Assembly (NCBI GenBank): GCA_963693055.1
Contig: OY843751.1
Location: 3,776,001 to 3,840,000 of the forward strand
DNA: 64,000 nt
Reading direction: 5' to 3'
Origin: a bacterium
Lineage (GTDB): Bacteria; Zhuqueibacterota; Zhuqueibacteria; Residuimicrobiales; Krinioviventaceae
The position numbers and the translations under genes are program-made. This document shows positions 54,016 to 64,000 of this stretch, piece after piece. The notes beneath the pieces were generated by a model. That model saw only the letters and a program-made list of their open reading frames with translations, had not been told where the DNA came from and did not search any database. Positions within the stretch are counted from its first letter, which is position 1; each line of letters opens with the position of its first letter.

Positions 54016-56628
54016 TTAACTACTCTCTCCTGCCAGTGTAACCTCTACCTTGTTCTTTGCGGTTACATTACCGTTCATATCCTCGACTTTGACTACCAGC
54101 TCGTATGTGCCGGGTTTGACATTACCCAGATCCAGATTGACATACACCGGCTCGTCCCGCGAGGCACCCTGGTACTCAAATGACGTACCCGTAATACCCT
54201 TGTCCCGTCTCATGATCGTATTGAACAATCCGTGCAAAACGGTAGGAGGTTCATCAATACCAATATTTTGTATTGTACAAGTCACACGATACTTTGTCTG
54301 GTCATTTTGTCCGTAAAGCAGGTTATAGATTTCAAAATAGAGCCCTACCATCTGCCCCTTGGAAAAAGCATTAAACATATGAGGATAATAATAAACCTCA
54401 CCTTTTTTAAATTTCTCGCCTTGACCTTCGCCGCCTATTTCTGCGGAAAGTAAAATATCACTGATTTCCAGTTGGTTGTTGCTGTAATCTTTGATCTTTA
54501 ACGTATCACGAAAGACAGCACGACGTTTGGAGACCTGGTCATAGACCTGCATCTCGTAATTATAAGTTGCAGGATCAAGATCAAAGCGTTCCACATCCAC
54601 AATATTGCTCTTTGCCCAGCGATTCATATCCATTTGTACATCAAGAATGGTATTTTCGTTAACGCGTTCAACTTCGTTCCAGTTGCTGTCATAAAAATTG
54701 TAATAATTGGCGAGTTTTATTATGCTTAAACCATGCGTTGTATCCAGCTGCACATTTTGTCCATCTACACTGTAATACAACTCGGTTTCAGTTTTGCCGT
54801 CGTCTCCCTTGAAACTGAGATAAGTAAAAGGAACGGTCATGGGGTCTTCAGCAAATTGATATTTACTGGATTCGGTCTGCAATGCAGCTTTAACTGATTC
54901 TATTGATTCTTCTTTGATTGTATTGGTATACTGTTGAATTACGCTTGCTACCGGCTGCATACTATTAAATGATTCTTCACCCAGGCGTTGATAAATGGGA
55001 TCCAGAAACTCGCGATTCGCAACAGTATAGGGTACGGCTTCAATAATCCAGCCGCTTTTACCGGTATATTTCTTGAAATGGAATGTCATTACATCGTGAT
55101 CATCTGTGGCATAATACTGCCAGGAAATATTCATGGGCATATTGTGAAAAAAGCCATTAGACGCAAGCGATTCGCCATTAAAGGGTTGAGGAACTTTGAA
55201 ATGACGACTCGCGGTAATCATATTTCCATCTACACCGGAACCCGACGAGGTAACGCCGGTTGCCTCTGTCATGCTGGTATATTGCGTACCGCCAAAACCG
55301 CTTGTACCCTGGTTGCCCAATTCCGCTTTTTCATTGAGGTAGGGTTGACCATTAACAACTGTATTTGCAGCAGCAGAAGGATGATAATAAACGGGAATTC
55401 CATCACCGGAAGTGACTTTATTATCGGGAGCGCCATGACGCATAAAAATCACACCCATATCATCAAGCTGCCGGTCACGTGGTAAGGCAACAATATTACA
55501 ATATTCTCGTAACAGCTTGTCACCTTCAATATTGAATTGAGAATAGGGATGCATGGTAGAGTGAACCATATACATCTTGTCTATATCATCTTGTGAGAAA
55601 TAACGGATAAAGTATTTATGCGCAAAATCCAAACGATCATAATACTCGGCAATAAACTCGTTATTCGATGTACTCAGATTGGGATCACGCTTGTTCCAAA
55701 ACCGTTTATAAAATGCGAACAAATCAAACAGGTCCGTTTTTTGATACTCGGCATATTCATCATTATCCATCAAATAACACACTTCATTAAACAGAGTATT
55801 AATAGAGACACTGTCTTTTAAAGCCTTTAAAGCTGTCCAATAATAATTTTCAGCAATTTTGGGGCGATCGAGTTGGAAATAGTTTTTAGCGCTTAGCAGG
55901 TTGATATCAAATTGTGAAACATCAGGGAAATTTTGGCGCATTGCATCCAAACGTTTCAGGCTTTCTTTAAATTTATCCTGATAAAACTCCATCTTTGCCA
56001 TTCCCAACTGAAGCTCGTAATACTCGGGATTGTCTTTTACCAGCTTTTCAAAAATGGATAAACAATCATCATATTTCTGATAAATGATTGAAATATCAAT
56101 TAACGATTCGATCAATCTTGAATTATCAGGATTTTTCTTGATACCATCCTCTAACGCACCAATAGCTTCACCAACCCATTCCACCTCTACATGCAATTTG
56201 GCAATTTCAAGATAAGCATCAATAAGGTGCTCGTCACGTCGAACAGCTTTTTTCAAATTATCCAGCGCTTTGAGATTACCGTTTTCCATGTACTTGTATG
56301 TCATACCGATCTGATAATACGCCATTGCGTAATTTTTATCATAACGGATGGCACGTTCAAATTTATCTATAGCGTCATCAGGTTCACCCTGGGCACGCTT
56401 TAAAAGTCCCATTCCATACCAAGCCTGGGGCAGCTTTTTGTTCTTGTTGAGCAGAGACTGCAATACAGTTTCAGCTTTATTATAATCCTGGTTTTCAATA
56501 AAATTCAGGGCTTGTTTATAGTCACTTTTCCAGGCTGTATCAGATTCGTTTTGAGCAAGTAGAGCAATAGAGAAAACCATAACAAGAGCAAAAATTAAAA
56601 ACACATTAAATCTTTTTAATTCATACAT
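54016..56628 (-). CDS. TPR plus GWxTD-domain secreted protein with C-terminal Ig-like domains
   Basis: N-terminal TPRs; FWNKRDPN.ST..NE...EYYDRL.FA..YF and DDMGVIFMRHGAPD; ISDILL, LYFEIYNL, PGTYELVVKVED. Confidence 0.8.
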   Translation of the reverse strand: MYELKRFNVFLIFALVMVFSIALLAQNESDTAWKSDYKQALNFIENQDYNKAETVLQSLLNKNKKLPQAWYGMGLLKRAQGEPDDAIDKFERAIRYDKNYAMAYYQIGMTYKYMENGNLKALDNLKKAVRRDEHLIDAYLEIAKLHVEVEWVGEAIGALEDGIKKNPDNSRLIESLIDISIIYQKYDDCLSIFEKLVKDNPEYYELQLGMAKMEFYQDKFKESLKRLDAMRQNFPDVSQFDINLLSAKNYFQLDRPKIAENYYWTALKALKDSVSINTLFNEVCYLMDNDEYAEYQKTDLFDLFAFYKRFWNKRDPNLSTSNNEFIAEYYDRLDFAHKYFIRYFSQDDIDKMYMVHSTMHPYSQFNIEGDKLLREYCNIVALPRDRQLDDMGVIFMRHGAPDNKVTSGDGIPVYYHPSAAANTVVNGQPYLNEKAELGNQGTSGFGGTQYTSMTEATGVTSSGSGVDGNMITASRHFKVPQPFNGESLASNGFFHNMPMNISWQYYATDDHDVMTFHFKKYTGKSGWIIEAVPYTVANREFLDPIYQRLGEESFNSMQPVASVIQQYTNTIKEESIESVKAALQTESSKYQFAEDPMTVPFTYLSFKGDDGKTETELYYSVDGQNVQLDTTHGLSIIKLANYYNFYDSNWNEVERVNENTILDVQMDMNRWAKSNIVDVERFDLDPATYNYEMQVYDQVSKRRAVFRDTLKIKDYSNNQLEISDILLSAEIGGEGQGEKFKKGEVYYYPHMFNAFSKGQMVGLYFEIYNLLYGQNDQTKYRVTCTIQNIGIDEPPTVLHGLFNTIMRRDKGITGTSFEYQGASRDEPVYVNLDLGNVKPGTYELVVKVEDMNGNVTAKNKVEVTLAGESS

Positions 56629-56966: not shown

Positions 56967-57872
56967 ATGGGGTATTCAATGGAAAGTAAGGCTGGTCAAG
57001 AAATTCGTGCGTTTCATATCTTTCTAGTTATTTTATACATACTCTCTTTTATTTCAATCATATACTTTTTTTATAAAGGCTGGGATTATTATTCAACCCC
57101 CTTTCCTGAAAGACCCCGCCATGATGGTTACACACTCTTGAAACCCGGTGGAAATTACGGACATGGATTTGGCATTATTGGGTCCCTCATGATGCTTATT
57201 ATGTTATTGTACTCTATACGCAAGCGTGCACAAATATTTTACAAGTTGGGAAATATTACCAAATGGCTGGATATACATATCTATCTTGGCATTTTTGGTC
57301 CTTTGTTAATTATACTGCACAGTTCTTTCAAAGTAAACGGCCTGGTTGCAATCAGCTTTTACTCTATGCTGGCGGTTGCGCTTAGTGGTATAATTGGTCG
57401 TTATCTGTATTTACAAATCCCCCGTAACATACAAGGGCATGAGCTATCATTACTTGAACTCAAAAACATGGATGCTCAACTCTCTAAAAAATTAAAAAAT
57501 GAGTTTGATTTTTCAGATGACATGATTTCAAAACTGGAGCATTTGACCAAAAGCAGCCACCTCGAATCCCAAAATTCAATGGTTTTTCTGGTTAAATTGT
57601 TATTGGATGATATTTACAGAGCCAGAGTTTTTCGCACATTTAAAAAAGAAAATGCTTTTATAAAGAAATTGCCACCCAAACAGGTAAAAGATCTTTTAAA
57701 AATAGCTCGCAATAAAGTGATTCTTCACCGTAGAATTCTTGCATTGAATAAAATACAACAGCTCTTTCACTATTGGCACGTTATTCATAAACCTTTTGCA
57801 ATCATTATGATTATTATCATGTTTGTTCATATTGCAATTGCAATTACATTTGGATATAAATGGATATTCTAA
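56967..57872 (+). CDS. Inner-membrane protein, putative diheme cytochrome b (ferric-reductase-like TM domain)
   Basis: About 5 TM helices; two helices each carry His pairs 14 residues apart (H-IYLGIFGPLLIIL-H and H-KPFAIIMIIIMFV-H). Start may be ATG 56979. Confidence 0.75.
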   Translation: MGYSMESKAGQEIRAFHIFLVILYILSFISIIYFFYKGWDYYSTPFPERPRHDGYTLLKPGGNYGHGFGIIGSLMMLIMLLYSIRKRAQIFYKLGNITKWLDIHIYLGIFGPLLIILHSSFKVNGLVAISFYSMLAVALSGIIGRYLYLQIPRNIQGHELSLLELKNMDAQLSKKLKNEFDFSDDMISKLEHLTKSSHLESQNSMVFLVKLLLDDIYRARVFRTFKKENAFIKKLPPKQVKDLLKIARNKVILHRRILALNKIQQLFHYWHVIHKPFAIIMIIIMFVHIAIAITFGYKWIF

Positions 57873-57873
57873 A

Positions 57874-59553
57874 ATGAAAGCACAATTCTTTGTTGTACTG
57901 ATCCTGCTTTTATCACTGCCCGCATTTGCGCAATTGTCCCCGGGAAAACTGCACCAATCCCATGCGGATCTTGAAGGTTTGGAAAACTGTTCCAATTGTC
58001 ATCAATTCAAAAGAAAAATCAGTGCTGACAATTGTCTGGATTGTCACATGATTTTAAACAATAGAATTGCATCCGGCAGGGGGCTGCATGCAAATGACGA
58101 GTATAATGAATGTGAAAAATGCCACATAGAACATCAGGGGCGAGATTATGATCTGATATACTGGCCAGATGGAAAAGACAATTTTAAACATGAGCTCACA
58201 GGCTATCATCTTGAAGGCAAGCATTCTCAGCTGAATTGCAGTCAGTGTCATCAATCCCAAAATATAACCAACAAAGCACTGTTTCTTGAAAAGAAAAAGG
58301 ATCTCAATAAAACCCTGCTGGGCCTTGATGAAGATTGCCTTTCATGCCACCATGATGAACATCGTTCCCAATTCACTCAGGAATGCATCACCTGCCATAC
58401 GATGGAAGGTTGGAAGCCTGCAAAAAAGTTTAATCATCAAAACACCCATTTTAGTTTAACCGGCAAACATCAACAAGTAGATTGTGTAAAATGCCATCCA
58501 CAAATCACCGATAATAAATACAATGCACATCCTTCTTTTTCAAAATATAGCAATCTCGAGTATCAAAATTGCATCAACTGCCATCAGGATGTGCATAATA
58601 ATAAATTTGGTTCCAATTGCGAATCCTGCCACAACACATCAGGATGGAAAACTGTGAACCATAACCAGTTTGATCACAACCGTACATCCTTCCCATTAAA
58701 AGGGAAACACATCACAACGGCTTGTGAACAGTGCCATTTACCCGGCAGACCCATTAAAATTAACAAATATGACAGGTGTGCTGATTGTCATACGGATTAC
58801 CATAAAAACCAATTCACCAAAACCGAACATATTGGCAATTGTGAACAATGCCATACCGAACAGGGCTTTACTCCATCGCTATTTACAATTGAAAAGCATA
58901 ATAACCTGGATTTCCATCTGGAAGGTAGTCACAAAGCCGTTCCGTGTATTGCCTGCCACAAAAAAATCAATACGGGCACCAGTTATGAAACCATTCAATT
59001 CCATTATCCAGATAAAAAATGCAGTTCCTGTCACAAAGATCCACATAATGGTCAAGTCAATAAATTCACCTCACAACAGGGATGTGAAGCATGCCACTCT
59101 GTTGCAAGCTGGTACACAATCAATTTTGATCACAATCAGACAAAATTCCCTCTTGAGGGTCGCCATAAAAATGTTTCATGCGCACAATGTCACGTGGAAG
59201 AGGATCTGTCAAAGAACAAGACCTATGCCTTTGTTAATCTTGTTTCAGATTGCCAGTCATGTCACAATGATGTTCATCTGGGGCAATTCCGGGAAGACCA
59301 ACTTGTAAACGGAAATAACCATACCAACTGTGATAGATGCCATACTCCCGCAAACTGGATTGCTGAAAAGTTTGAACATAATAGAGACGCCTCATTCAAA
59401 CTTGATGGTGCTCACCAGTCAGTCCCATGTAATGACTGCCATAAAGAATTATCATTAAAAGGCAACAAGTTTAGATTATATAAACCCCTGCGCTCGGATT
59501 GTAAATTCTGTCATACCCCTTCAAAAAAAACTAACGATACCAGGTCAAACTAA
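57874..59553 (+). CDS. Multiheme cytochrome c, 20 CxxCH motifs
   Basis: Signal peptide MKAQFF...AFA; 20 CxxCH counted; repeating FxH..T.F.L.G.H triheme units. Confidence 0.95.
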   Translation: MKAQFFVVLILLLSLPAFAQLSPGKLHQSHADLEGLENCSNCHQFKRKISADNCLDCHMILNNRIASGRGLHANDEYNECEKCHIEHQGRDYDLIYWPDGKDNFKHELTGYHLEGKHSQLNCSQCHQSQNITNKALFLEKKKDLNKTLLGLDEDCLSCHHDEHRSQFTQECITCHTMEGWKPAKKFNHQNTHFSLTGKHQQVDCVKCHPQITDNKYNAHPSFSKYSNLEYQNCINCHQDVHNNKFGSNCESCHNTSGWKTVNHNQFDHNRTSFPLKGKHITTACEQCHLPGRPIKINKYDRCADCHTDYHKNQFTKTEHIGNCEQCHTEQGFTPSLFTIEKHNNLDFHLEGSHKAVPCIACHKKINTGTSYETIQFHYPDKKCSSCHKDPHNGQVNKFTSQQGCEACHSVASWYTINFDHNQTKFPLEGRHKNVSCAQCHVEEDLSKNKTYAFVNLVSDCQSCHNDVHLGQFREDQLVNGNNHTNCDRCHTPANWIAEKFEHNRDASFKLDGAHQSVPCNDCHKELSLKGNKFRLYKPLRSDCKFCHTPSKKTNDTRSN

Positions 59554-61664
59554 TGAAAGCCGTATCTATGAAATATTTATTATTTCTACTTTTACTGCTG
59601 AATTCAATATTATTAGCAGTAACCAGTCCTCATGGGGATATAAAAATACCCTGCGAAACCTGTCATACTCCGGCTAACTGGCAGGTTAACAGAGAAACCT
59701 TAAAATTTGATCATAACAGCACCGGGTATCCGTTAACAGGTGTGCATAGCCAGATAGATTGCAAAGACTGCCATGAGAGTCTGGTTTTTCATCAAACTGG
59801 TGTGCAATGTATGGATTGCCATACAGATATTCACCAGGGACAGTTGGGCAAAGAATGCGAAACCTGTCATACCCCCTTAAACTGGGAAAACCGGCAGAAT
59901 ATGCTAAAAGACCATTCTCTTTTACGCTTTCCCTTGTATGGTGCACATGAACGCATTGATTGCGACGACTGTCACCATGCCGGCTTGACAGAATATGCCA
60001 ACACCCCTGTTGAATGTATCTATTGCCATGCGGATGACTATAACTCAACCCAAAATCCTGATCATAAAGAAGCACAATTCCCCACAACCTGTGATGACTG
60101 CCACCCCATACAATCTCTTACCTGGCAAACCCGTGAATTTGATCATTCATTTTACCCATTGACCGGTGCGCATCAAAATGTAACCTGTGCAGATTGCCAC
60201 CACGGTACCTATACCAACACGCCCAATACATGTTATGGATGCCATAACACAGACTATGCGGCTACTATCGATCCCAATCATCAGGCATTTGGGTTCGATA
60301 CAGACTGTTCACAATGTCACACTACTGATACATGGACCCGGACTGCGTTCGATCACTATCAAGCATCCGGCTTTGAATTGATTGGTGCGCACCAGACATT
60401 ACAATGCAGTCAATGCCACATCAACAATCAGGGAACCGGATTACAAAGAGATTGTTATGGCTGTCATTTAACAGATTACAATTCCGTCAAAGAACCTGAC
60501 CATCAACTTGGTCAATATCCTCACGAATGTACAATGTGCCACAATGTGAACAATTGGAGCCCTGCCGACTTTGATCATAACCAGACCGGATTTCCCCTTA
60601 CAGGCGCTCACCAGGCTGTTGAATGTTCGGATTGTCACGAAAATAATGTTTATGCCGGAACTCCATCGGATTGCTACTCGTGTCACGAACCGGATTTCAA
60701 GTCCGTGACAGAACCCAATCACGTCACCGGTAATTTTGATCACGTATGTACCATCTGTCATTCCACAACCACATGGACACCAGCAACCTTTGATCATAAT
60801 AATACCGGTTTTCCGCTTACCGGAGCACATACAACAGCAACATGTCTGGATTGCCATGTTAATGGATATACCAATACGCCATCAGATTGCTACTCGTGCC
60901 ACGAACCGGATTTCAAGTCCGTGACAGAGCCCAATCACGTCACCAGTAATTTTGATCATGTGTGCACTATCTGCCACTCTACAACCGCTTGGACACCCGC
61001 AACCTTTGATCATAATAATACCGGTTTTCCGCTTACCGGAGCACATACAACAGCAACATGTCTGGATTGCCATGTTAATGGATATACTAATACGCCGTCA
61101 GATTGCTATTCGTGCCACGAACCGGATTTCAAGTCCGTGACAGAGCCCAATCACGTCACCGGTAATTTTGATCACGTTTGCACTATCTGCCACTCCACAA
61201 CCGCATGGACACCAGCAACCTTTGATCATAATAATACCGGTTTTCCGCTTACCGGAGCACATACAACAGCAACATGTCTGGATTGCCATGTTAATGGATA
61301 TACCAATACACCAGCGGATTGTTTTTTCTGTCATGAAAACGAGTACAATAATACAACAGATCCCAATCATAAAGCTTCTCAATTCCCGGTTACCTGTCAG
61401 GATTGTCACAATACCAACAACTGGGAGCAAACCACCTGGGACCATGATGCCCGCTATTTCCCCATTTATTCCGGCGAGCATCGCGGAGAATGGGATGCAT
61501 GTTCTGATTGTCACACCAACGCATCAAATTATACCGTATTTGAATGTATCAACTGTCATGAGCATCAAAAATCTGAAATGGACAACGAACATGATGAAGT
61601 AAGAAACTATCAGTACCTGAGTACGGCTTGTTATAATTGTCACCCAAATGGGAAAGAAGATTAA
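59553..61664 (+). CDS. Multiheme cytochrome c, 28 CxxCH motifs
   Basis: Signal peptide; 28 CxxCH counted; TAATG coupling at both ends. Confidence 0.96.
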   Translation: MKAVSMKYLLFLLLLLNSILLAVTSPHGDIKIPCETCHTPANWQVNRETLKFDHNSTGYPLTGVHSQIDCKDCHESLVFHQTGVQCMDCHTDIHQGQLGKECETCHTPLNWENRQNMLKDHSLLRFPLYGAHERIDCDDCHHAGLTEYANTPVECIYCHADDYNSTQNPDHKEAQFPTTCDDCHPIQSLTWQTREFDHSFYPLTGAHQNVTCADCHHGTYTNTPNTCYGCHNTDYAATIDPNHQAFGFDTDCSQCHTTDTWTRTAFDHYQASGFELIGAHQTLQCSQCHINNQGTGLQRDCYGCHLTDYNSVKEPDHQLGQYPHECTMCHNVNNWSPADFDHNQTGFPLTGAHQAVECSDCHENNVYAGTPSDCYSCHEPDFKSVTEPNHVTGNFDHVCTICHSTTTWTPATFDHNNTGFPLTGAHTTATCLDCHVNGYTNTPSDCYSCHEPDFKSVTEPNHVTSNFDHVCTICHSTTAWTPATFDHNNTGFPLTGAHTTATCLDCHVNGYTNTPSDCYSCHEPDFKSVTEPNHVTGNFDHVCTICHSTTAWTPATFDHNNTGFPLTGAHTTATCLDCHVNGYTNTPADCFFCHENEYNNTTDPNHKASQFPVTCQDCHNTNNWEQTTWDHDARYFPIYSGEHRGEWDACSDCHTNASNYTVFECINCHEHQKSEMDNEHDEVRNYQYLSTACYNCHPNGKED
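60663..61310 (+). repeat. Intragenic tandem repeat, 3 x 216 bp (72 aa, three hemes per unit)
   Basis: Units start at 60663, 60879 and 61095; near-identical DNA encoding PSDCYSCHEPDFKSVTEPNHVTGNFDHVCTICH...CLDCHVNGYTNT. Confidence 0.97.
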
Positions 61665-62467
61665 TGAAAACAGCATTTAAAATCTTGATTTTTCTCAGTA
61701 TCTCTACAGCATTTTTTATCAATTATGTATACTCGAAAGACATACCCCACAAGCAATTGAAACTGGAATGTAACAGTTGTCACCTGACAGAAAACTGGAA
61801 TACTATTACGTTTGACCACAAGTCAACACAATTTCCACTGGATGGCAGGCACCATAACCTGGAATGCGTTGACTGCCACAATCTTGAAGATTTTTCTCAA
61901 ATCAGGATGGAATGCAAACAATGTCATCTTGATATTCACCAGGGGAAATTAACATATCCCTGTGACCAATGCCATACAACCAGTGGGTGGCAGGTCAAAG
62001 ATATTTTCAAGGTCCATGCCAATACAACATTCCCGGTACTGGGCGCGCACAGTCGGTTGGATTGCGATGCCTGCCATATATCAGAAATTGTGGGTGAATT
62101 TGCCCGCATTCAATCAGATTGTTATACCTGTCATGAACAGGATTACAAAAACACGACTGATCCCTCACACCAGGATTTTGGATTTAATCACAGATGCGAA
62201 GATTGCCACAGTATGCTCGCATGGTTTCCGGCAATGTTTGCCGAGCACGAATCCCGCTTCCCCATCTCTTCCGGAGCGCATGCAGGTGAATGGGAAAATT
62301 GCAATATCTGTCATACCAATCCCGGTAATTTCCAGATATTCAGTTGTCTCAACTGTCATGAGCATAATCAATCGAGTATGGTTGGAGAACATGACGAAAT
62401 AAGTGGATTTAGCTACAACAGTGATGCGTGTTACCGTTGTCATCATGATGGCAAAGCGGAGGATTAA
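61664..62467 (+). CDS. Decaheme cytochrome c, short paralog of the 28-heme protein
   Basis: Start MKTAFK at ATG 61664; 10 CxxCH counted; N- and C-terminal modules align with 59553..61664. Confidence 0.95.
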   Translation: MKTAFKILIFLSISTAFFINYVYSKDIPHKQLKLECNSCHLTENWNTITFDHKSTQFPLDGRHHNLECVDCHNLEDFSQIRMECKQCHLDIHQGKLTYPCDQCHTTSGWQVKDIFKVHANTTFPVLGAHSRLDCDACHISEIVGEFARIQSDCYTCHEQDYKNTTDPSHQDFGFNHRCEDCHSMLAWFPAMFAEHESRFPISSGAHAGEWENCNICHTNPGNFQIFSCLNCHEHNQSSMVGEHDEISGFSYNSDACYRCHHDGKAED

Positions 62468-62469
62468 TT

Positions 62470-64000
62470 ATGAACTTTATAAAAAATAGTATTTTCATCC
62501 TGATTTTGATTTCTATTTCGAGTATTTCCGCACAAGAATCTGCTAAAGATTTTACCATTAAATATATCTCGAATGAAAACATTTATATTGATGGCGGCAG
62601 CATAGATGGACTTGCAGTTGGAGATACAATAATCGTAATGCGTAAAAACACTCGTATTGCGGTAATGACGATTAATTACACAGCAGATCATTCAGCGGCA
62701 TGTACAATTGTATCGCAAAGCATGCAAGTTCAACCGGGAGATTTGGCAAGGCCTTTGGTGCTTCGTCAGCAGGAAAAATTCGAAACCGTGTCTTCTCCAC
62801 TGAAAACAAGAAAAACCATACTACGCCAAAAGACCCAAACAAAACAGAATGATATGAAAATCAGGGGCAGCGTTTCTTTGCAATGGTACCATTTTGAAGA
62901 CATGTCTGAAGGAAATTTCAGTTTTGATCAACCGGGTGGACGATTGAATCTAAGAATGAAGAATGTGTTTACCAAAAACCTGAATTTCAGGATCAAAACC
63001 AAAAGCCGGTATAACAAACGGATGACGCATCTAAGCGGTACTACAGCCAGAAACGAATGGCGCAACCGCATTTATACCGTCAGTCTGAGTTTTGATGATG
63101 ATAATGCAGCAATAAATTATAAACTGGGACGTATTATCTCGAACAAATTCAGCGGCATTGGTTATATTGACGGTGCTTTAATACAACACAATACAACCGA
63201 AAATTTACGATACGGTGTTTTTGCCGGTACGCAACCCCAATGGCAGTATGCCGATTTCCAGACATCCATACAAAAATATGGCGCCTATATTAATTATTTA
63301 CAAGGCCAATATGGAGGCAAGCGGTTTGAATCTACCCTGGCCGCTGCCGGAGAATATCATGGTGCTGAGGTAAGCCGCGAATTTGTCTATCTGCAAAACA
63401 GCTTTTCTTCACAACAATTTAATCTCTATAGCAGTGCAGAACTCGATGTAAACCGTGACTGGCGCAAAGATAAAAGCGGCGAAAATATATCTCTTACCAA
63501 TCTTTATCTCAACTTTTCTTATGCTATTACCCGGAGCATTACAACAGGATTAAGTTTTGACGATCGGAAAAATTATTATACATACGAAATCCGTTCTGTT
63601 GCAGACAGCCTGTTTGATGATGCCATGCGTTATGGAGCTCGCTGGAATCTGAACCTCCGTTTGCCGGGCAACTATCGGGTGTATGCTAACGCGGGTATAC
63701 GTGCCAGAGAAACCGATACGGAAAACACATATTCCGGGGCATTGGGCGTCAGTAAAAACAATATTACTGATCACAACCTGTATGTAAATTTTTATGGATC
63801 AGGATTTCAAAATTATTTTTCAACAGGATTTAATGCATCTTTAAGAATGGGCAAATACTTTAGGGCTGGGCATAATGTAAACATGAGTTATGGTAACTAT
63901 TCGTATGTGTTGAGCACAACCAATACCACCCGTTCTAACCACTGGTTACGTTTAAACGGAAATTTACAGATTTTTAGACACATCTATCTCGATGAGAATT
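62470..64000 (+). CDS. Large outer-membrane beta-barrel (porin) with N-terminal soluble domain; truncated by the window edge
   Basis: Not in the ORF track. ATG 62470 opens at least 510 codons: signal peptide, NIYIDGGSIDGLAVGD domain, then many amphipathic strands (IRGSVSLQWY, RLNLRM, YKLGRI, YGVFAG, YGAYINY, LYLNFSY, YGARWNLNLRL, FNASLRMGKYF). Confidence 0.85.
   Translation, partial: MNFIKNSIFILILISISSISAQESAKDFTIKYISNENIYIDGGSIDGLAVGDTIIVMRKNTRIAVMTINYTADHSAACTIVSQSMQVQPGDLARPLVLRQQEKFETVSSPLKTRKTILRQKTQTKQNDMKIRGSVSLQWYHFEDMSEGNFSFDQPGGRLNLRMKNVFTKNLNFRIKTKSRYNKRMTHLSGTTARNEWRNRIYTVSLSFDDDNAAINYKLGRIISNKFSGIGYIDGALIQHNTTENLRYGVFAGTQPQWQYADFQTSIQKYGAYINYLQGQYGGKRFESTLAAAGEYHGAEVSREFVYLQNSFSSQQFNLYSSAELDVNRDWRKDKSGENISLTNLYLNFSYAITRSITTGLSFDDRKNYYTYEIRSVADSLFDDAMRYGARWNLNLRLPGNYRVYANAGIRARETDTENTYSGALGVSKNNITDHNLYVNFYGSGFQNYFSTGFNASLRMGKYFRAGHNVNMSYGNYSYVLSTTNTTRSNHWLRLNGNLQIFRHIYLDEN

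What the first reader, a model, noticed from the sequence alone, without database searches (positions are those of the whole stretch)
59553..62467. Two paralogous cytochromes with the same end caps differ by six triheme modules: a length-tunable heme wire
Seen: both start PH....CxxCH..W...FDH..T..PL.G.H...CxxCH...CxxCH.DIHQG.L...CxxCH. Both end FPI.SG.H.GEW..CxxCHTN..N...F.CxNCHEH..S.M..EHDE.....Y.S.ACYxCH..GK(A)ED. Heme counts are 28 and 10, a difference of 6 x 3. Each roughly 72-aa module has three CxxCH and three spacer His (FDH, GAH, PNH), enough for bis-His ligation. Inference: conserved caps are docking or polymerisation surfaces and the module number sets the physical reach. The short and long forms could be alternative or chained segments.
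Basis: partly seen in the sequence, partly recalled or inferred. Interest (0 to 1): 0.75.

Follow-up and report, generated by a model that had tools for sequence, protein, structure and literature searches.

The report
Modular heme-wire cytochromes with porin partner
Two neighbouring cytochrome genes with 28 and 10 heme sites share the same ends and differ by exactly six three-heme modules. They belong to a large family whose heme counts run 10, 13, 16 ... up to 115, and they are predicted to plug into the adjacent outer-membrane barrel, likely forming electron conduits of adjustable length.

Summary
Gene B (59553-61664) has 28 CxxCH sites and gene C (61664-62467) has 10. Both have a 4-heme head, then n triheme modules of about 72 aa, then a 3-heme C-terminal unit (n=7 and n=1). 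A third paralog elsewhere in the genome has 49 sites (n=14).

Of 145 homologs with both ends intact, 140 have heme counts of 1 mod 3, ranging from 10 to 115. A same-genus relative's ortholog of B has 25 hemes, exactly one module fewer.

The genes sit in a tight operon:
- an inner-membrane protein with two W-x3-H-x13-H motifs;
- a 20-heme cytochrome;
- B, then C;
- a predicted 22-strand outer-membrane barrel.

This four-part cassette recurs in relatives with a near-constant 20-heme protein and one capped cytochrome of 15-43 hemes. It matches the published but functionally untested PCC3 porin-cytochrome cluster type.

A complex prediction threads C through the barrel (ipSAE 0.76, best control 0.00). 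The contacts are hemes 2-7, meaning the head plus the first module.

The most likely reading is a barrel-anchored heme wire of variable length. Cap-to-cap polymerisation was not tested, and the C-terminal unit is not only a cap. This is a new member of a known kind.

The parts
56967..57872 (+). Inner-membrane protein (301 aa), likely a di-heme-b quinol/quinone-active subunit
   Evidence: It has two W-x3-H-x13-H motifs (residues 100 and 270) and SGIIG at 140. All 17 homologs examined share these. This is the signature given for PCC3/PCC4 inner-membrane proteins in PMC5566968. Pfam gives only weak, sub-cutoff hits to Ni_hydr_CYTB and DUF4405.
57874..59553 (+). Cytochrome A, 20 CxxCH, signal peptide, no end caps of the B/C type; likely the periplasm-spanning member
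   Evidence: The ORF call starts at 57823 and the likely start is 57874, one base after the IMP stop. The equivalent gene has 20 hemes in 17 of 19 relatives' loci.
59553..61664 (+). Cytochrome B, 703 aa, 28 CxxCH: 4-heme head + 7 triheme modules + 3-heme C-terminal unit
   Evidence: Pfam Cytochrome_C7 scores 89.5 bits against a cutoff of 24.8. The start ATG overlaps the stop of A (TAATG).
59622..59933 (+). N-terminal 4-heme head ('N-cap') of B, residues 24-127
   Evidence: Cap HMM hit at residues 24-127, 179 bits. It aligns to the head of C at 34% identity.
59961..61499 (+). Seven triheme modules of B (residues 137-649), each 72-75 aa
   Evidence: Modules 4-6 are 93.5% identical to each other on average.
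60663..61321 (+). 216-nt tandem DNA repeat (3.1 copies, 93% matches) encoding the youngest modules
   Evidence: The same-genus ortholog lacks one unit here, and a contig of another study lays with about 213 fewer bases across 60570-61241.
61413..61661 (+). C-terminal 3-heme unit ('C-cap') of B, residues 621-703
   Evidence: Cap HMM hit, 158 bits. It is 40% identical to the C-terminal part of C.
61664..62467 (+). Cytochrome C, 267 aa, 10 CxxCH: head + 1 module + C-terminal unit; predicted barrel insert
   Evidence: The complex prediction with the barrel gives ipSAE 0.76 against a best control of 0.00, with contacts on residues 56-191.
62470..64000 (+). Outer-membrane protein (532 aa, runs 68 bases past the window end): signal peptide, small N-terminal beta domain, linker, predicted 22-strand barrel ending in GYRF
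   Evidence: The AlphaFold2 model has pLDDT 91.3. Best structural matches are 22-strand TonB-dependent transporters, Z 18-20. It has no Pfam or NCBIfam family. A 43%-identical paralog follows the 49-heme gene.

Best explanation
B (28 hemes) and C (10 hemes) are paralogous modular c-type cytochromes, each built of a 4-heme head, n triheme modules of about 72 residues and a 3-heme C-terminal unit. They lie in one operon with a membrane protein carrying two W-x3-H-x13-H motifs, a 20-heme cytochrome and a predicted 22-strand outer-membrane barrel. They likely act as the barrel-threaded, variable-length outer segment of a PCC3-like porin-cytochrome electron conduit.

Shown directly:
- the module grammar;
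- the 3n+1 rule across the family;
- the tandem 216-nt repeats;
- a one-module difference from a same-genus ortholog;
- the conserved gene cassette;
- the co-occurrence of the cytochrome and the barrel.

Predicted by models:
- The barrel has 22 strands.
- The head plus first module (hemes 2-7 of C) fills its lumen.

Inferred:
- The inner-membrane protein exchanges electrons with the quinone pool.
- The constant 20-heme protein spans the periplasm.
- The N terminus of the capped cytochrome faces the periplasm, so the module array and C-terminal unit emerge outside the cell.
- Unequal recombination among the 216-nt repeats adds or removes whole modules and thereby changes the reach. At about 1 nm per heme (the GSU1996 figure), the three paralogs would reach roughly 10, 28 and 49 nm.

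The direction of electron flow (reduction of outside acceptors or uptake from outside donors) is open.
For: Architecture and paralogy.

A third paralog has 49 CxxCH (4 + 14x3 + 3). It is followed directly by a barrel paralog at 43% identity, E 1e-140.

Quantisation: of 173 proteins (171 homologs plus B and D), 127 have both ends, and 123 of those have counts of 1 mod 3. Of 33 longer homologs, 18 have both ends, and 17 of those are 1 mod 3, reaching 115 hemes.

Recent module change:
- The B ortholog in the same genus has 25 hemes, while its flanks are more than 90% identical.
- Identity within an array is 93.5% in B and 85.8% in D, against 60.9% between B and D, so the arrays expanded separately.
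- Tandem repeats are found in both genes.

Synteny: in 28 of 30 loci found with the barrel, a gene with the C-terminal unit lies in the upstream flank on the same strand.

Cassette in relatives: the order is IMP, 20-heme cytochrome, one capped cytochrome (15-43 hemes), barrel. The 20-heme gene has 20 hemes in 17 of 19 loci.

Co-occurrence in 167 genomes of the phylum: the barrel is in 45, the capped cytochrome in 42, and both in 40 (tables compared by me).

Barrel: AF2 model with pLDDT 91.3 and 22 strands. Best matches are 5t3r_D (Z 20.2, rmsd 4.5, 373 aligned) and Cir 2hdf_A (Z 18.7, rmsd 4.5, 351 aligned).

Complex prediction:
- Score 0.76, best of 3 controls 0.00. The mark was reached by 116 of 157 solved complexes and 2 of 215 mismatched pairs. 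These counts hold only roughly, because my own alignments were used.
- The runs agree in at least 78% of contacts, and the partner's pLDDT is at least 71.
- The interface takes alternate residues on the strands from 138 to 531, plus loops.
- On the cytochrome side it takes residues 56-191.
- The least-error pairs put residues 89-91 at mid-strand (176, 202) and residues 131-135 at the outer strand ends (142, 152, 154, 182, 184, 198).

IMP motifs are present in 17 of 17 homologs and match the PCC3 description in PMC5566968.

Operon coupling: TAATG overlaps at the A/B and B/C junctions, and gaps of 1 and 2 bases at the other two.
Against: - No fold evidence exists for an extended chain. The AF2 model of C had pLDDT 45.
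- The complex was predicted without hemes, and a like complex (MtrAB) is solved. The pass may therefore show likeness rather than binding of this copy (caveat).
- The orientation rests on only 25 listed contact pairs.
- None of A, B, C or D has a lipoprotein cysteine, and no export route for a long holo-cytochrome is identified.
- B has no barrel gene of its own, so its place in the complex is unknown.
- The C-terminal unit type occurs internally in many homologs.
- PCC3 itself has never been tested functionally (passages in bioRxiv 10.1101/2025.02.27.639646).
- In Gallionellaceae, the PCC3 outer cytochromes are listed with 10-18 and 26-35 hemes, which are not quantised (PMC10734462). The rule may therefore hold only for this family.
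- Sequence homology to proteobacterial PCC3 proteins was not tested.
- The count of 28 depends on one assembly.
Confidence: 0.62

Rival explanations
1. The long cytochromes are periplasmic electron stores or wires (capacitors), as proposed for the Geobacter triheme-domain polymers. The barrel would be only a neighbour, or would bind just one end, and the module array would stay inside the cell.
For: The closest solved relative by sequence is the periplasmic dodecaheme GSU1996 (3ov0, E 2.8e-5). That family is discussed as a periplasmic capacitor (PMC10138318 passages). No lipobox and no export system was found here.
Against: Cytochrome and barrel are adjacent in 28 of 30 loci and co-occur in 40 of 45 barrel-bearing genomes. 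The complex prediction threads C through the barrel. Family members of 85-115 hemes would be about 85-115 nm long at the GSU1996 spacing, far longer than a periplasm is wide (width recalled, not from a call). In addition, the neighbouring 20-heme protein is the one with constant length.
Confidence: 0.15
2. The conserved ends are cap-to-cap docking or polymerisation surfaces, so B and C (or many copies of one protein) chain head to tail into a longer wire or filament.
For: The B+C tandem upstream of one barrel is conserved in the same-genus relative, and B has no barrel of its own. If C sits in the barrel with its C-terminal unit exposed, that unit could be a docking site for B.
Against: In 17 of 19 relatives' loci with enough context there is only one capped cytochrome, counting two genes that are each split into two ORFs as one, so chaining is not the general mode. 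The head is predicted to be buried in the barrel, not free. The C-terminal unit type also occurs inside chains.
Confidence: 0.15
3. B and C are alternative inserts for the same barrel. The cell would then display a mixture of short and long wires rather than one assembly.
For: Both keep the head plus first module that forms the predicted barrel interface. The 49-heme paralog pairs with its own barrel and needs no 10-heme partner. Relatives use a single capped protein of any length.
Against: There is no direct test. The head regions of B and C are only 34% identical. The 10-heme form is a conserved subfamily of its own, making up 25 of the 127 complete homologs, which hints at a distinct role.
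Confidence: 0.2

Closest known systems
PCC3 porin-cytochrome gene clusters (He et al. 2017, PMC5566968; Hoover et al. 2023, PMC10734462), read as passages only
   Same: It has the same four parts. These are a roughly 300-aa inner-membrane protein with two W-x3-H-x13-H motifs and SGxxG, a periplasmic cytochrome of about 21 hemes (20 here), a second cytochrome with a large and variable heme number built of repeats, and a beta-barrel porin. The 'molecular wire' reading was already proposed there.
   Different: PCC3 was described mostly in Proteobacteria, whereas this cluster is in what is probably a Calditrichota genome. The gene order reported for Sideroxydans differs: outer cytochrome, porin, periplasmic cytochrome, IMP. 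The strict 3n+1 heme rule, the head/module/end grammar and the tandem pair of capped paralogs are not in the passages I read. Sequence homology to the proteobacterial proteins was not tested.
Geobacter triheme-domain 'nanowire' cytochromes GSU1996, GSU0592 (12 hemes) and GSU2210 (27 hemes); PDB 3OV0
   Same: These are single polypeptides made of repeated triheme domains of about 70-80 aa. In GSU1996 the hemes form a linear array (PMC10138318 passages). It is the best PDB sequence match, and Pfam Cytochrome_C7 is matched.
   Different: The similarity is only marginal (27 bits), and NCBIfam nanowire_3heme scores below its cutoff. GSU1996 has one His-Met heme per domain, whereas these modules have three conserved extra His and no conserved Met. 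The Geobacter proteins are described as periplasmic, and the passages read name no porin partner or special end units.
MtrAB(C) porin-cytochrome complex of Shewanella (features recalled; the complex tool's text warns only of like solved complexes, without naming one)
   Same: A decaheme cytochrome is predicted to be threaded through an outer-membrane barrel, with its N terminus toward the periplasm.
   Different: The barrel model has 22 strands, whereas MtrB has 26 (recalled). The DmsE/MtrA family model scores 46 bits against a cutoff of 192. No lipoprotein outer cytochrome is present. The inserted protein itself varies from 10 to 115 hemes.
Polymerised cytochrome filaments (OmcS, OmcE, OmcZ)
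   Same: Both give long-range heme chains outside the cell (passages).
   Different: In the filaments, length comes from the assembly of many small subunits. Here length is written in one gene as a module copy number.

Membership tests
PCC3-type cluster | Inner-membrane protein of about 300 aa with two W-x3-H-x13-H motifs and an SGxxG motif between them | tested here: met
   Present in the window protein at residues 100, 140 and 270, and in 17 of 17 homologs. The definition comes from PMC5566968.
PCC3-type cluster | Five transmembrane helices in that protein | tested here: inconclusive
   A simple hydropathy scan gives blocks at 11-40, 64-87, a merged block at 99-146 (long enough for two helices) and 269-301. 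No dedicated topology predictor was run.
PCC3-type cluster | Periplasmic multiheme cytochrome of about 21 hemes | tested here: met
   A has 20 CxxCH and a signal peptide. The count is 20 in 17 of 19 relatives' loci. Its location is inferred.
PCC3-type cluster | Second cytochrome with a large, variable heme number made of repeats | tested here: met
   The genome has 28, 10 and 49 hemes in its three paralogs. Relatives have 15-43 hemes.
PCC3-type cluster | Adjacent outer-membrane beta-barrel porin | tested here: met
   The AF2 model has 22 strands and pLDDT 91.3. Fold matches are to outer-membrane barrels.
PCC3-type cluster | Sequence homology to the Sideroxydans/Leptothrix PCC3 proteins | not tested
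   No reference sequences could be drawn with the tools used.
Geobacter c7-type triheme polymer (NCBIfam TIGR04257 nanowire_3heme) | Score at or above the curated cutoff of 40 bits | tested here: not met
   C scores 23.2 bits. B and A have no hit.
Geobacter c7-type triheme polymer | Head-to-tail triheme domains of about 70-80 aa | tested here: met
Geobacter c7-type triheme polymer | One His-Met ligated heme per domain | tested here: not met
   By sequence only. The modules keep three extra His and no conserved Met, and B has Met only at residues 1, 6, 87, 117, 328 and 676. Ligation itself cannot be seen from sequence.
Pfam PF14522 Cytochrome_C7 | Score above the gathering cutoff of 24.8 bits | tested here: met
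   B scores 89.5 bits, C 42.6 bits and A 77.5 bits.
MtrA/DmsE decaheme family (TIGR03508) | Score at or above the cutoff of 192.2 bits | tested here: not met
   B scores 46.4 bits and A 39 bits. C has no hit.
MtrAB-type complex | Cytochrome inserted in the barrel lumen | tested here: met
   This is a prediction only. The score is 0.76 against a best control of 0.00, and the mark was reached by 116 of 157 solved complexes and 2 of 215 mismatched pairs. The result may reflect likeness to solved complexes.
MtrAB-type complex | MtrB-like barrel fold | tested here: inconclusive
   The listed fold matches are TonB-dependent transporters, ushers and Occ porins. A family that is not listed is not excluded.

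The most novel reading that the evidence does not exclude
This family is a natural length series of single-polypeptide extracellular heme wires, from 10 to 115 hemes (roughly 10 to over 100 nm). Each wire is anchored by a constant 4-heme head plus first module threaded through a 22-strand barrel. Its reach is set genetically by the copy number of 216-nt repeats, which recombine fast enough to differ between congeners. This one genome fields three lengths (10, 28 and 49 hemes) to wire itself to acceptors or partners at different distances.
Probability: 0.35. Interest if true: 0.75.

Novelty: new member of a known kind. Interest (0 to 1): 0.52.

Why it matters
Large multiheme cytochromes next to porins have been noted before and called molecular wires, but none of this type has been tested. 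The simple grammar found here is a head plus n triheme modules, with heme counts of 3n+1 in 140 of 145 complete homologs.

The family therefore supplies ready-made proteins that differ only in length. They would suit measurements of how electron transfer scales with the number of hemes in one polypeptide, and tests of whether cells tune their electrical reach by repeat copy number.

The partner barrel family has no Pfam or NCBIfam model, yet it has 1267 cluster representatives in the large protein library. This type of conduit may therefore be common and under-annotated in Calditrichota, Ignavibacteria, Bacteroidota and Acidobacteriota metagenomes (source names).

Tried and rejected
- AlphaFold2 of C with a 25-sequence alignment gave pLDDT 45 and pTM 0.23. 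I did not use it for fold searches, so the 'extended or globular' test remains open.
- The search for related loci with the barrel alignment failed for lack of conserved stretches. With the single protein it found only two loci: a 95%-identical unnamed MAG and a Calditrichia MAG at 39%.
- No RNA holder was listed for the stretch, so nothing can be said about expression.
- Contigs of the window's own sample do not bridge the repeat array, so they neither confirm nor contradict seven modules.
- Foldseek against the PDB gave only generic barrel matches at TM about 0.4. MtrB does not appear among the rows listed.
- The ESM Atlas look-up of the inner-membrane protein returned only unnamed clusters.
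- NCBIfam has no family for the inner-membrane protein or the barrel.
- The search of earlier findings showed nothing near this place.
- Literature: the phrases 'triheme module', 'three-heme module', 'triheme repeat', 'c7-type domains' and 'heme-binding motifs per repeat' found no paper. Searches turned up PCC3 and modular-cytochrome papers, but the passages I read contained no statement of the 3n+1 rule. Supplementary tables of PMC5566968 were not opened and may list heme counts that bear on this.
- The Caldithrix abyssi genome paper (PMC5317091, passages) says nothing about such a cluster.
- My cap-HMM 'grammar' strings resolve module types only roughly, because the C-terminal-unit HMM overlaps the end of the preceding module.

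Full report
OBSERVATION

The stretch 59553-62467 holds two ORFs on the + strand. B is 59553-61664 (703 aa). C is called from 61637, but its likely start is the ATG at 61664, which overlaps the stop of B (TAATG) and gives 267 aa.

B has 28 CxxCH and C has 10, and neither has a cysteine outside these motifs. The spacing of the motifs shows the same plan in both:
- a 4-heme head with spacings of about 36/16/16;
- triheme modules with spacings 32/15/25 (period 72 aa);
- a 3-heme end with spacings 35/15/28.

B has seven modules and C has one. Each module keeps three further His: P[ND]H, [FW][DE]H and G.H. In an alignment of 25 ten-heme homologs, 11 non-motif His are invariant for 10 hemes, so bis-His ligation is possible throughout.

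BLASTP aligns the heads at 34% identity (E 1e-44) and the tails at 40% (E 1e-55). At the DNA level there is a 216-nt tandem repeat, 3.1 copies at 93% matches, at 60663-61321.

A THIRD PARALOG AND THE 3n+1 RULE

A search of the window's own genome (one contig of 6.54 Mb) found a third gene of the same plan at C1:2005664-2009383 on the minus strand. It has 49 CxxCH, that is 4 + 14x3 + 3, with a 216-nt array of 9.4 copies at 87% matches.

I collected 171 homologs of C, from 190 to 1907 aa. I then built HMMs of the two end units from the three paralogs.
- Of 173 proteins (the 171 plus B and the 49-heme protein), 127 have a full head at the N terminus and a full end unit at the C terminus.
- Their heme counts are 10, 13, 16, 19 ... 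76, and 123 of the 127 are 1 mod 3.
- Three of the four exceptions (9, 44 and 45 hemes) show doubled spacings where single motifs are lost. The fourth (17 hemes) shows short 23/25 spacings instead.
- The 46 proteins without both ends are fragments or a different, A-like family. They show no such rule: 18, 17 and 11 in the three residue classes.

A further search with the 49-heme protein for longer relatives gave 33 proteins of 2128-2826 aa. Of these, 18 have both ends, and 17 of the 18 are 1 mod 3, up to 115 hemes. In total 140 of 145 obey the rule.

Related sequences are not independent. Even so, the complete homologs take 33 different heme counts, and 28 of those counts are 1 mod 3.

MODULES CHANGE IN RECENT TIME

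The same-genus relative, whose barrel is 95% identical, has the same operon, but its B ortholog has 25 hemes and 633 aa. Its two ends align at more than 90% identity, and one unit is missing from the array. A contig from another study lays on the stretch with about 213 fewer bases in the same place. It may come from that same relative, so I do not count it as independent.

Modules 4-6 of B are 93.5% identical to each other. Modules 4-13 of the 49-heme protein are 85.8% identical. The two sets are only 60.9% identical to each other. The arrays therefore grew separately in each gene.

One caveat applies. Short-read contigs from the window's own sample break inside the array, so the figure of seven modules rests on the single-contig assembly.

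THE END UNITS ARE NOT EQUAL

The head occurs once, at the N terminus. The C-terminal unit is a variant triheme module. In many longer homologs, and in several relatives' loci, the same type occurs repeatedly inside the chain. In some lineages it is the unit that is multiplied; one example is a 43-heme protein with 12 such units at a 77-aa period. In this genome it is found only at the ends. 'Cap' is therefore apt for the head but only partly for the tail.

CONTEXT

The genes are packed tightly:
- the inner-membrane protein (56967-57872) stops one base before the start of A (57874);
- A/B and B/C overlap as TAATG;
- the next gene starts two bases after C.

That next gene (62470 to 68 bases past the window end, 532 aa) has a signal peptide and ends in GYRF. 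It matches no Pfam or NCBIfam family. It has 1267 cluster representatives at E<=0.001 in the 1.84-billion-protein library.

With an 82-sequence alignment, AlphaFold2 gives a confident model (pLDDT 91.3, pTM 0.74):
- a small beta domain at residues 28-95;
- a disordered linker at 98-125;
- 22 beta strands from 130 to 531, with short turns.

The best structural matches over the barrel are TonB-dependent transporters:
- 5t3r_D: Z 20.2, rmsd 4.5, 373 aligned;
- 2hdf_A: Z 18.7, rmsd 4.5, 351 aligned;
- 1nqe_A: Z 18.4, rmsd 4.8, 344 aligned.

Those barrels have 22 strands and hold a plug of about 150 residues (recalled knowledge).

The 49-heme gene is followed directly by a paralog of this barrel (43% identity, E 1e-140). 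It has no other cytochrome gene beside it.

CONSERVATION OF THE PAIR AND OF THE CASSETTE

- In the phylum set of 167 genomes, the barrel is found in 45 and a capped cytochrome in 42 at E<=1e-30.
- By comparing the two tables, 40 genomes have both, 2 have only the cytochrome (74% and 85% complete), and 5 have only the barrel.
- Two of those five do show a truncated cytochrome gene at a contig end (L023, L032). One has a barrel broken by stop codons.
- In 28 of the 30 loci returned with the barrel, an ORF with the C-terminal unit lies in the upstream flank on the same strand. One of the other two has no upstream DNA, and the other is the broken locus.
- With 13 kb of context in 19 further stretches plus two named MAG loci, the usual order is inner-membrane protein, A-like cytochrome, one capped cytochrome, barrel.
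- The A-like gene has 20 hemes in 17 of 19 loci (the others have 21 and 17). The capped gene ranges from 15 to 43 hemes, and in two loci it is split into two ORFs.
- The window's arrangement of two capped genes in tandem is seen again only in the same-genus relative among these loci. A 10-heme gene directly upstream of the barrel is also present in another genus of the same family.

WHAT IS KNOWN

The inner-membrane protein has two W-x3-H-x13-H motifs with SGxxG between them, in all 17 homologs examined. He et al. 2017 (PMC5566968; I read passages found by term search) give exactly this signature for the roughly 300-aa inner-membrane protein of their 'PCC3' and 'PCC4' clusters. They describe PCC3 as follows:
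- It comprises a porin, an 'extracellular' cytochrome (median 34 hemes), a periplasmic cytochrome (median 21 hemes) and this membrane protein.
- The cytochromes have low residue-per-heme ratios and internal repeats.
- The authors propose they are molecular wires.

Here the ratios are 24.6 to 27.9 residues per heme.

Other papers, all read as passages:
- Hoover et al. 2023 (PMC10734462) report PCC3 outer cytochromes of 10-35 hemes and periplasmic ones of 21, 24 and 27 hemes in Gallionellaceae. They also report AlphaFold models that look long and linear. The outer counts listed there are not quantised in threes.
- A 2025 preprint (10.1101/2025.02.27.639646) states that PCC3 is functionally unverified.
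- Arbour et al. 2020 (PMC7399161) noted Ignavibacteria genomes with cytochromes of 40 and 33 hemes and with porin-cytochrome clusters.
- Soares et al. 2024 (PMC11492766) discuss modular 'molecular wire' cytochromes and name GSU1996 as the only characterised one.

GSU1996 has four triheme domains in a linear array, with one His-Met heme per domain, and is periplasmic (PMC10138318 passages). By sequence profile it is the closest solved structure to this family, but only marginally (3ov0, E 2.8e-5, 27 bits). The curated NCBIfam model for its domain is not reached (23.2 bits against a cutoff of 40). Pfam Cytochrome_C7 is matched (89.5 bits).

DOES THE CYTOCHROME BIND THE BARREL?

- The verdict was support: score 0.76, best of 3 controls 0.00.
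- The mark was reached by 116 of 157 solved complexes and 2 of 215 mismatched pairs. These counts hold only roughly, because my own alignments were used.
- The three runs agree in at least 78% of contacts, and the partner's pLDDT is at least 71.

The barrel residues in the interface are mostly every second residue along strands between 138 and 531. That is the lumen-facing side, and loop residues are added to it. The cytochrome residues are 56-191, which cover hemes 2 to 7: the head without its first heme, plus the first module.

Among the 25 least-error pairs, residues 89-91 touch mid-strand positions (176, 202). Residues 131-135 touch the ends of strands 1-4 that adjoin the longer loops (142, 152, 154, 182, 184, 198). 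Taking the longer loops as extracellular, which is the usual rule for such barrels (recalled), the chain runs from the periplasm (N terminus) to the outside (C terminus). This orientation is my inference from few pairs.

The model was made without hemes, and a like complex (MtrAB) is solved. The pass may therefore show likeness rather than binding of this copy.

MECHANISM

Putting this together, the most likely reading is a PCC3-like conduit:
- The membrane protein likely exchanges electrons with the quinone pool.
- The 20-heme protein likely bridges the periplasm. Its constant heme number across relatives fits a fixed distance, and Hoover et al. make the same point for 21-27 hemes.
- The capped cytochrome is predicted to sit with its head and first module in the barrel.
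- Everything beyond that, the variable array and the C-terminal unit, would lie outside the cell, where length is not constrained.

Whole modules are gained and lost by recombination between 216-nt repeats. If the GSU1996 figure of 12 hemes in 12 nm (title in the reference list seen) holds here, the three paralogs would reach about 10, 28 and 49 nm, and the largest family members over 100 nm.

What B does beside C is open. It could be an alternative insert for the same barrel, or it could dock on C. The direction of electron flow is also open.

Against this reading:
- There is no usable fold model of the cytochrome.
- There is no lipoprotein signal or identified export route.
- No data on expression could be obtained.
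- There is no functional test of any PCC3 system.

VERDICT

The 'length-tunable wire' idea agrees with the evidence, but it is already in print in general form for PCC3 and for the Geobacter triheme polymers.

What appears new within the limits of my searches:
- the exact grammar and the 3n+1 rule from 10 to 115 hemes;
- the one-module difference between congeners;
- the predicted role of the head as the barrel insert;
- the spread of this cytochrome-barrel pair in the FCB-group and Acidobacteriota metagenome records (source names).

The genome is probably from Calditrichota. The nearest named records are Calditrichaeota/Calditrichia MAGs, but no tool named it.

Noticed in passing
genome C1:2681425-2683260 (+), outside the window: A 612-aa ORF with 20 CxxCH, built of about eight 53-aa diheme repeats (spacing 17/36). 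It is another repeat-built cytochrome, of a different family.
   Followed up: no
genome C1:5906953-5909763 (+), outside the window: A 937-aa ORF with 19 CxxCH fused to a C-terminal stretch with several hydrophobic segments. It may be a membrane-anchored multiheme cytochrome.
   Followed up: no
window 62551-62754 (barrel residues 28-95) and the linker to residue 125: A small all-beta N-terminal domain and a disordered linker precede the barrel, and both are conserved across the 82-sequence alignment. The domain has no Pfam match and is not part of the predicted interface with C. It may be a periplasmic docking or plug domain.
   Followed up: partly
window 54016-56628 (-): An 870-aa protein with N-terminal TPR repeats and a GWxTD domain lies on the opposite strand, upstream of the operon.
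   Followed up: no
L010:1992-3419 (genome 3839992-3841422, mostly past the window end): The gene after the barrel encodes a 4Fe-4S dicluster domain plus a Pyr_redox_3 flavoprotein domain. Its longest ORF call overlaps the barrel's 3' end. Whether it belongs to the operon is unknown.
   Followed up: no
L041 (G137:C263:40590-54125): This is a decayed copy of the cassette. The barrel is split by stop codons, the A-like cytochrome is in fragments of 6 and 9 hemes, and no capped cytochrome gene lies between them, while the inner-membrane protein gene looks intact.
   Followed up: partly
window 57874-59553 (cytochrome A) and its homologs in L044 and L047: The 20-heme proteins contain an internal unit that matches the 4-heme head HMM of the capped family, at residue 424 in the window protein. 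The two cytochrome families therefore share building blocks.
   Followed up: no
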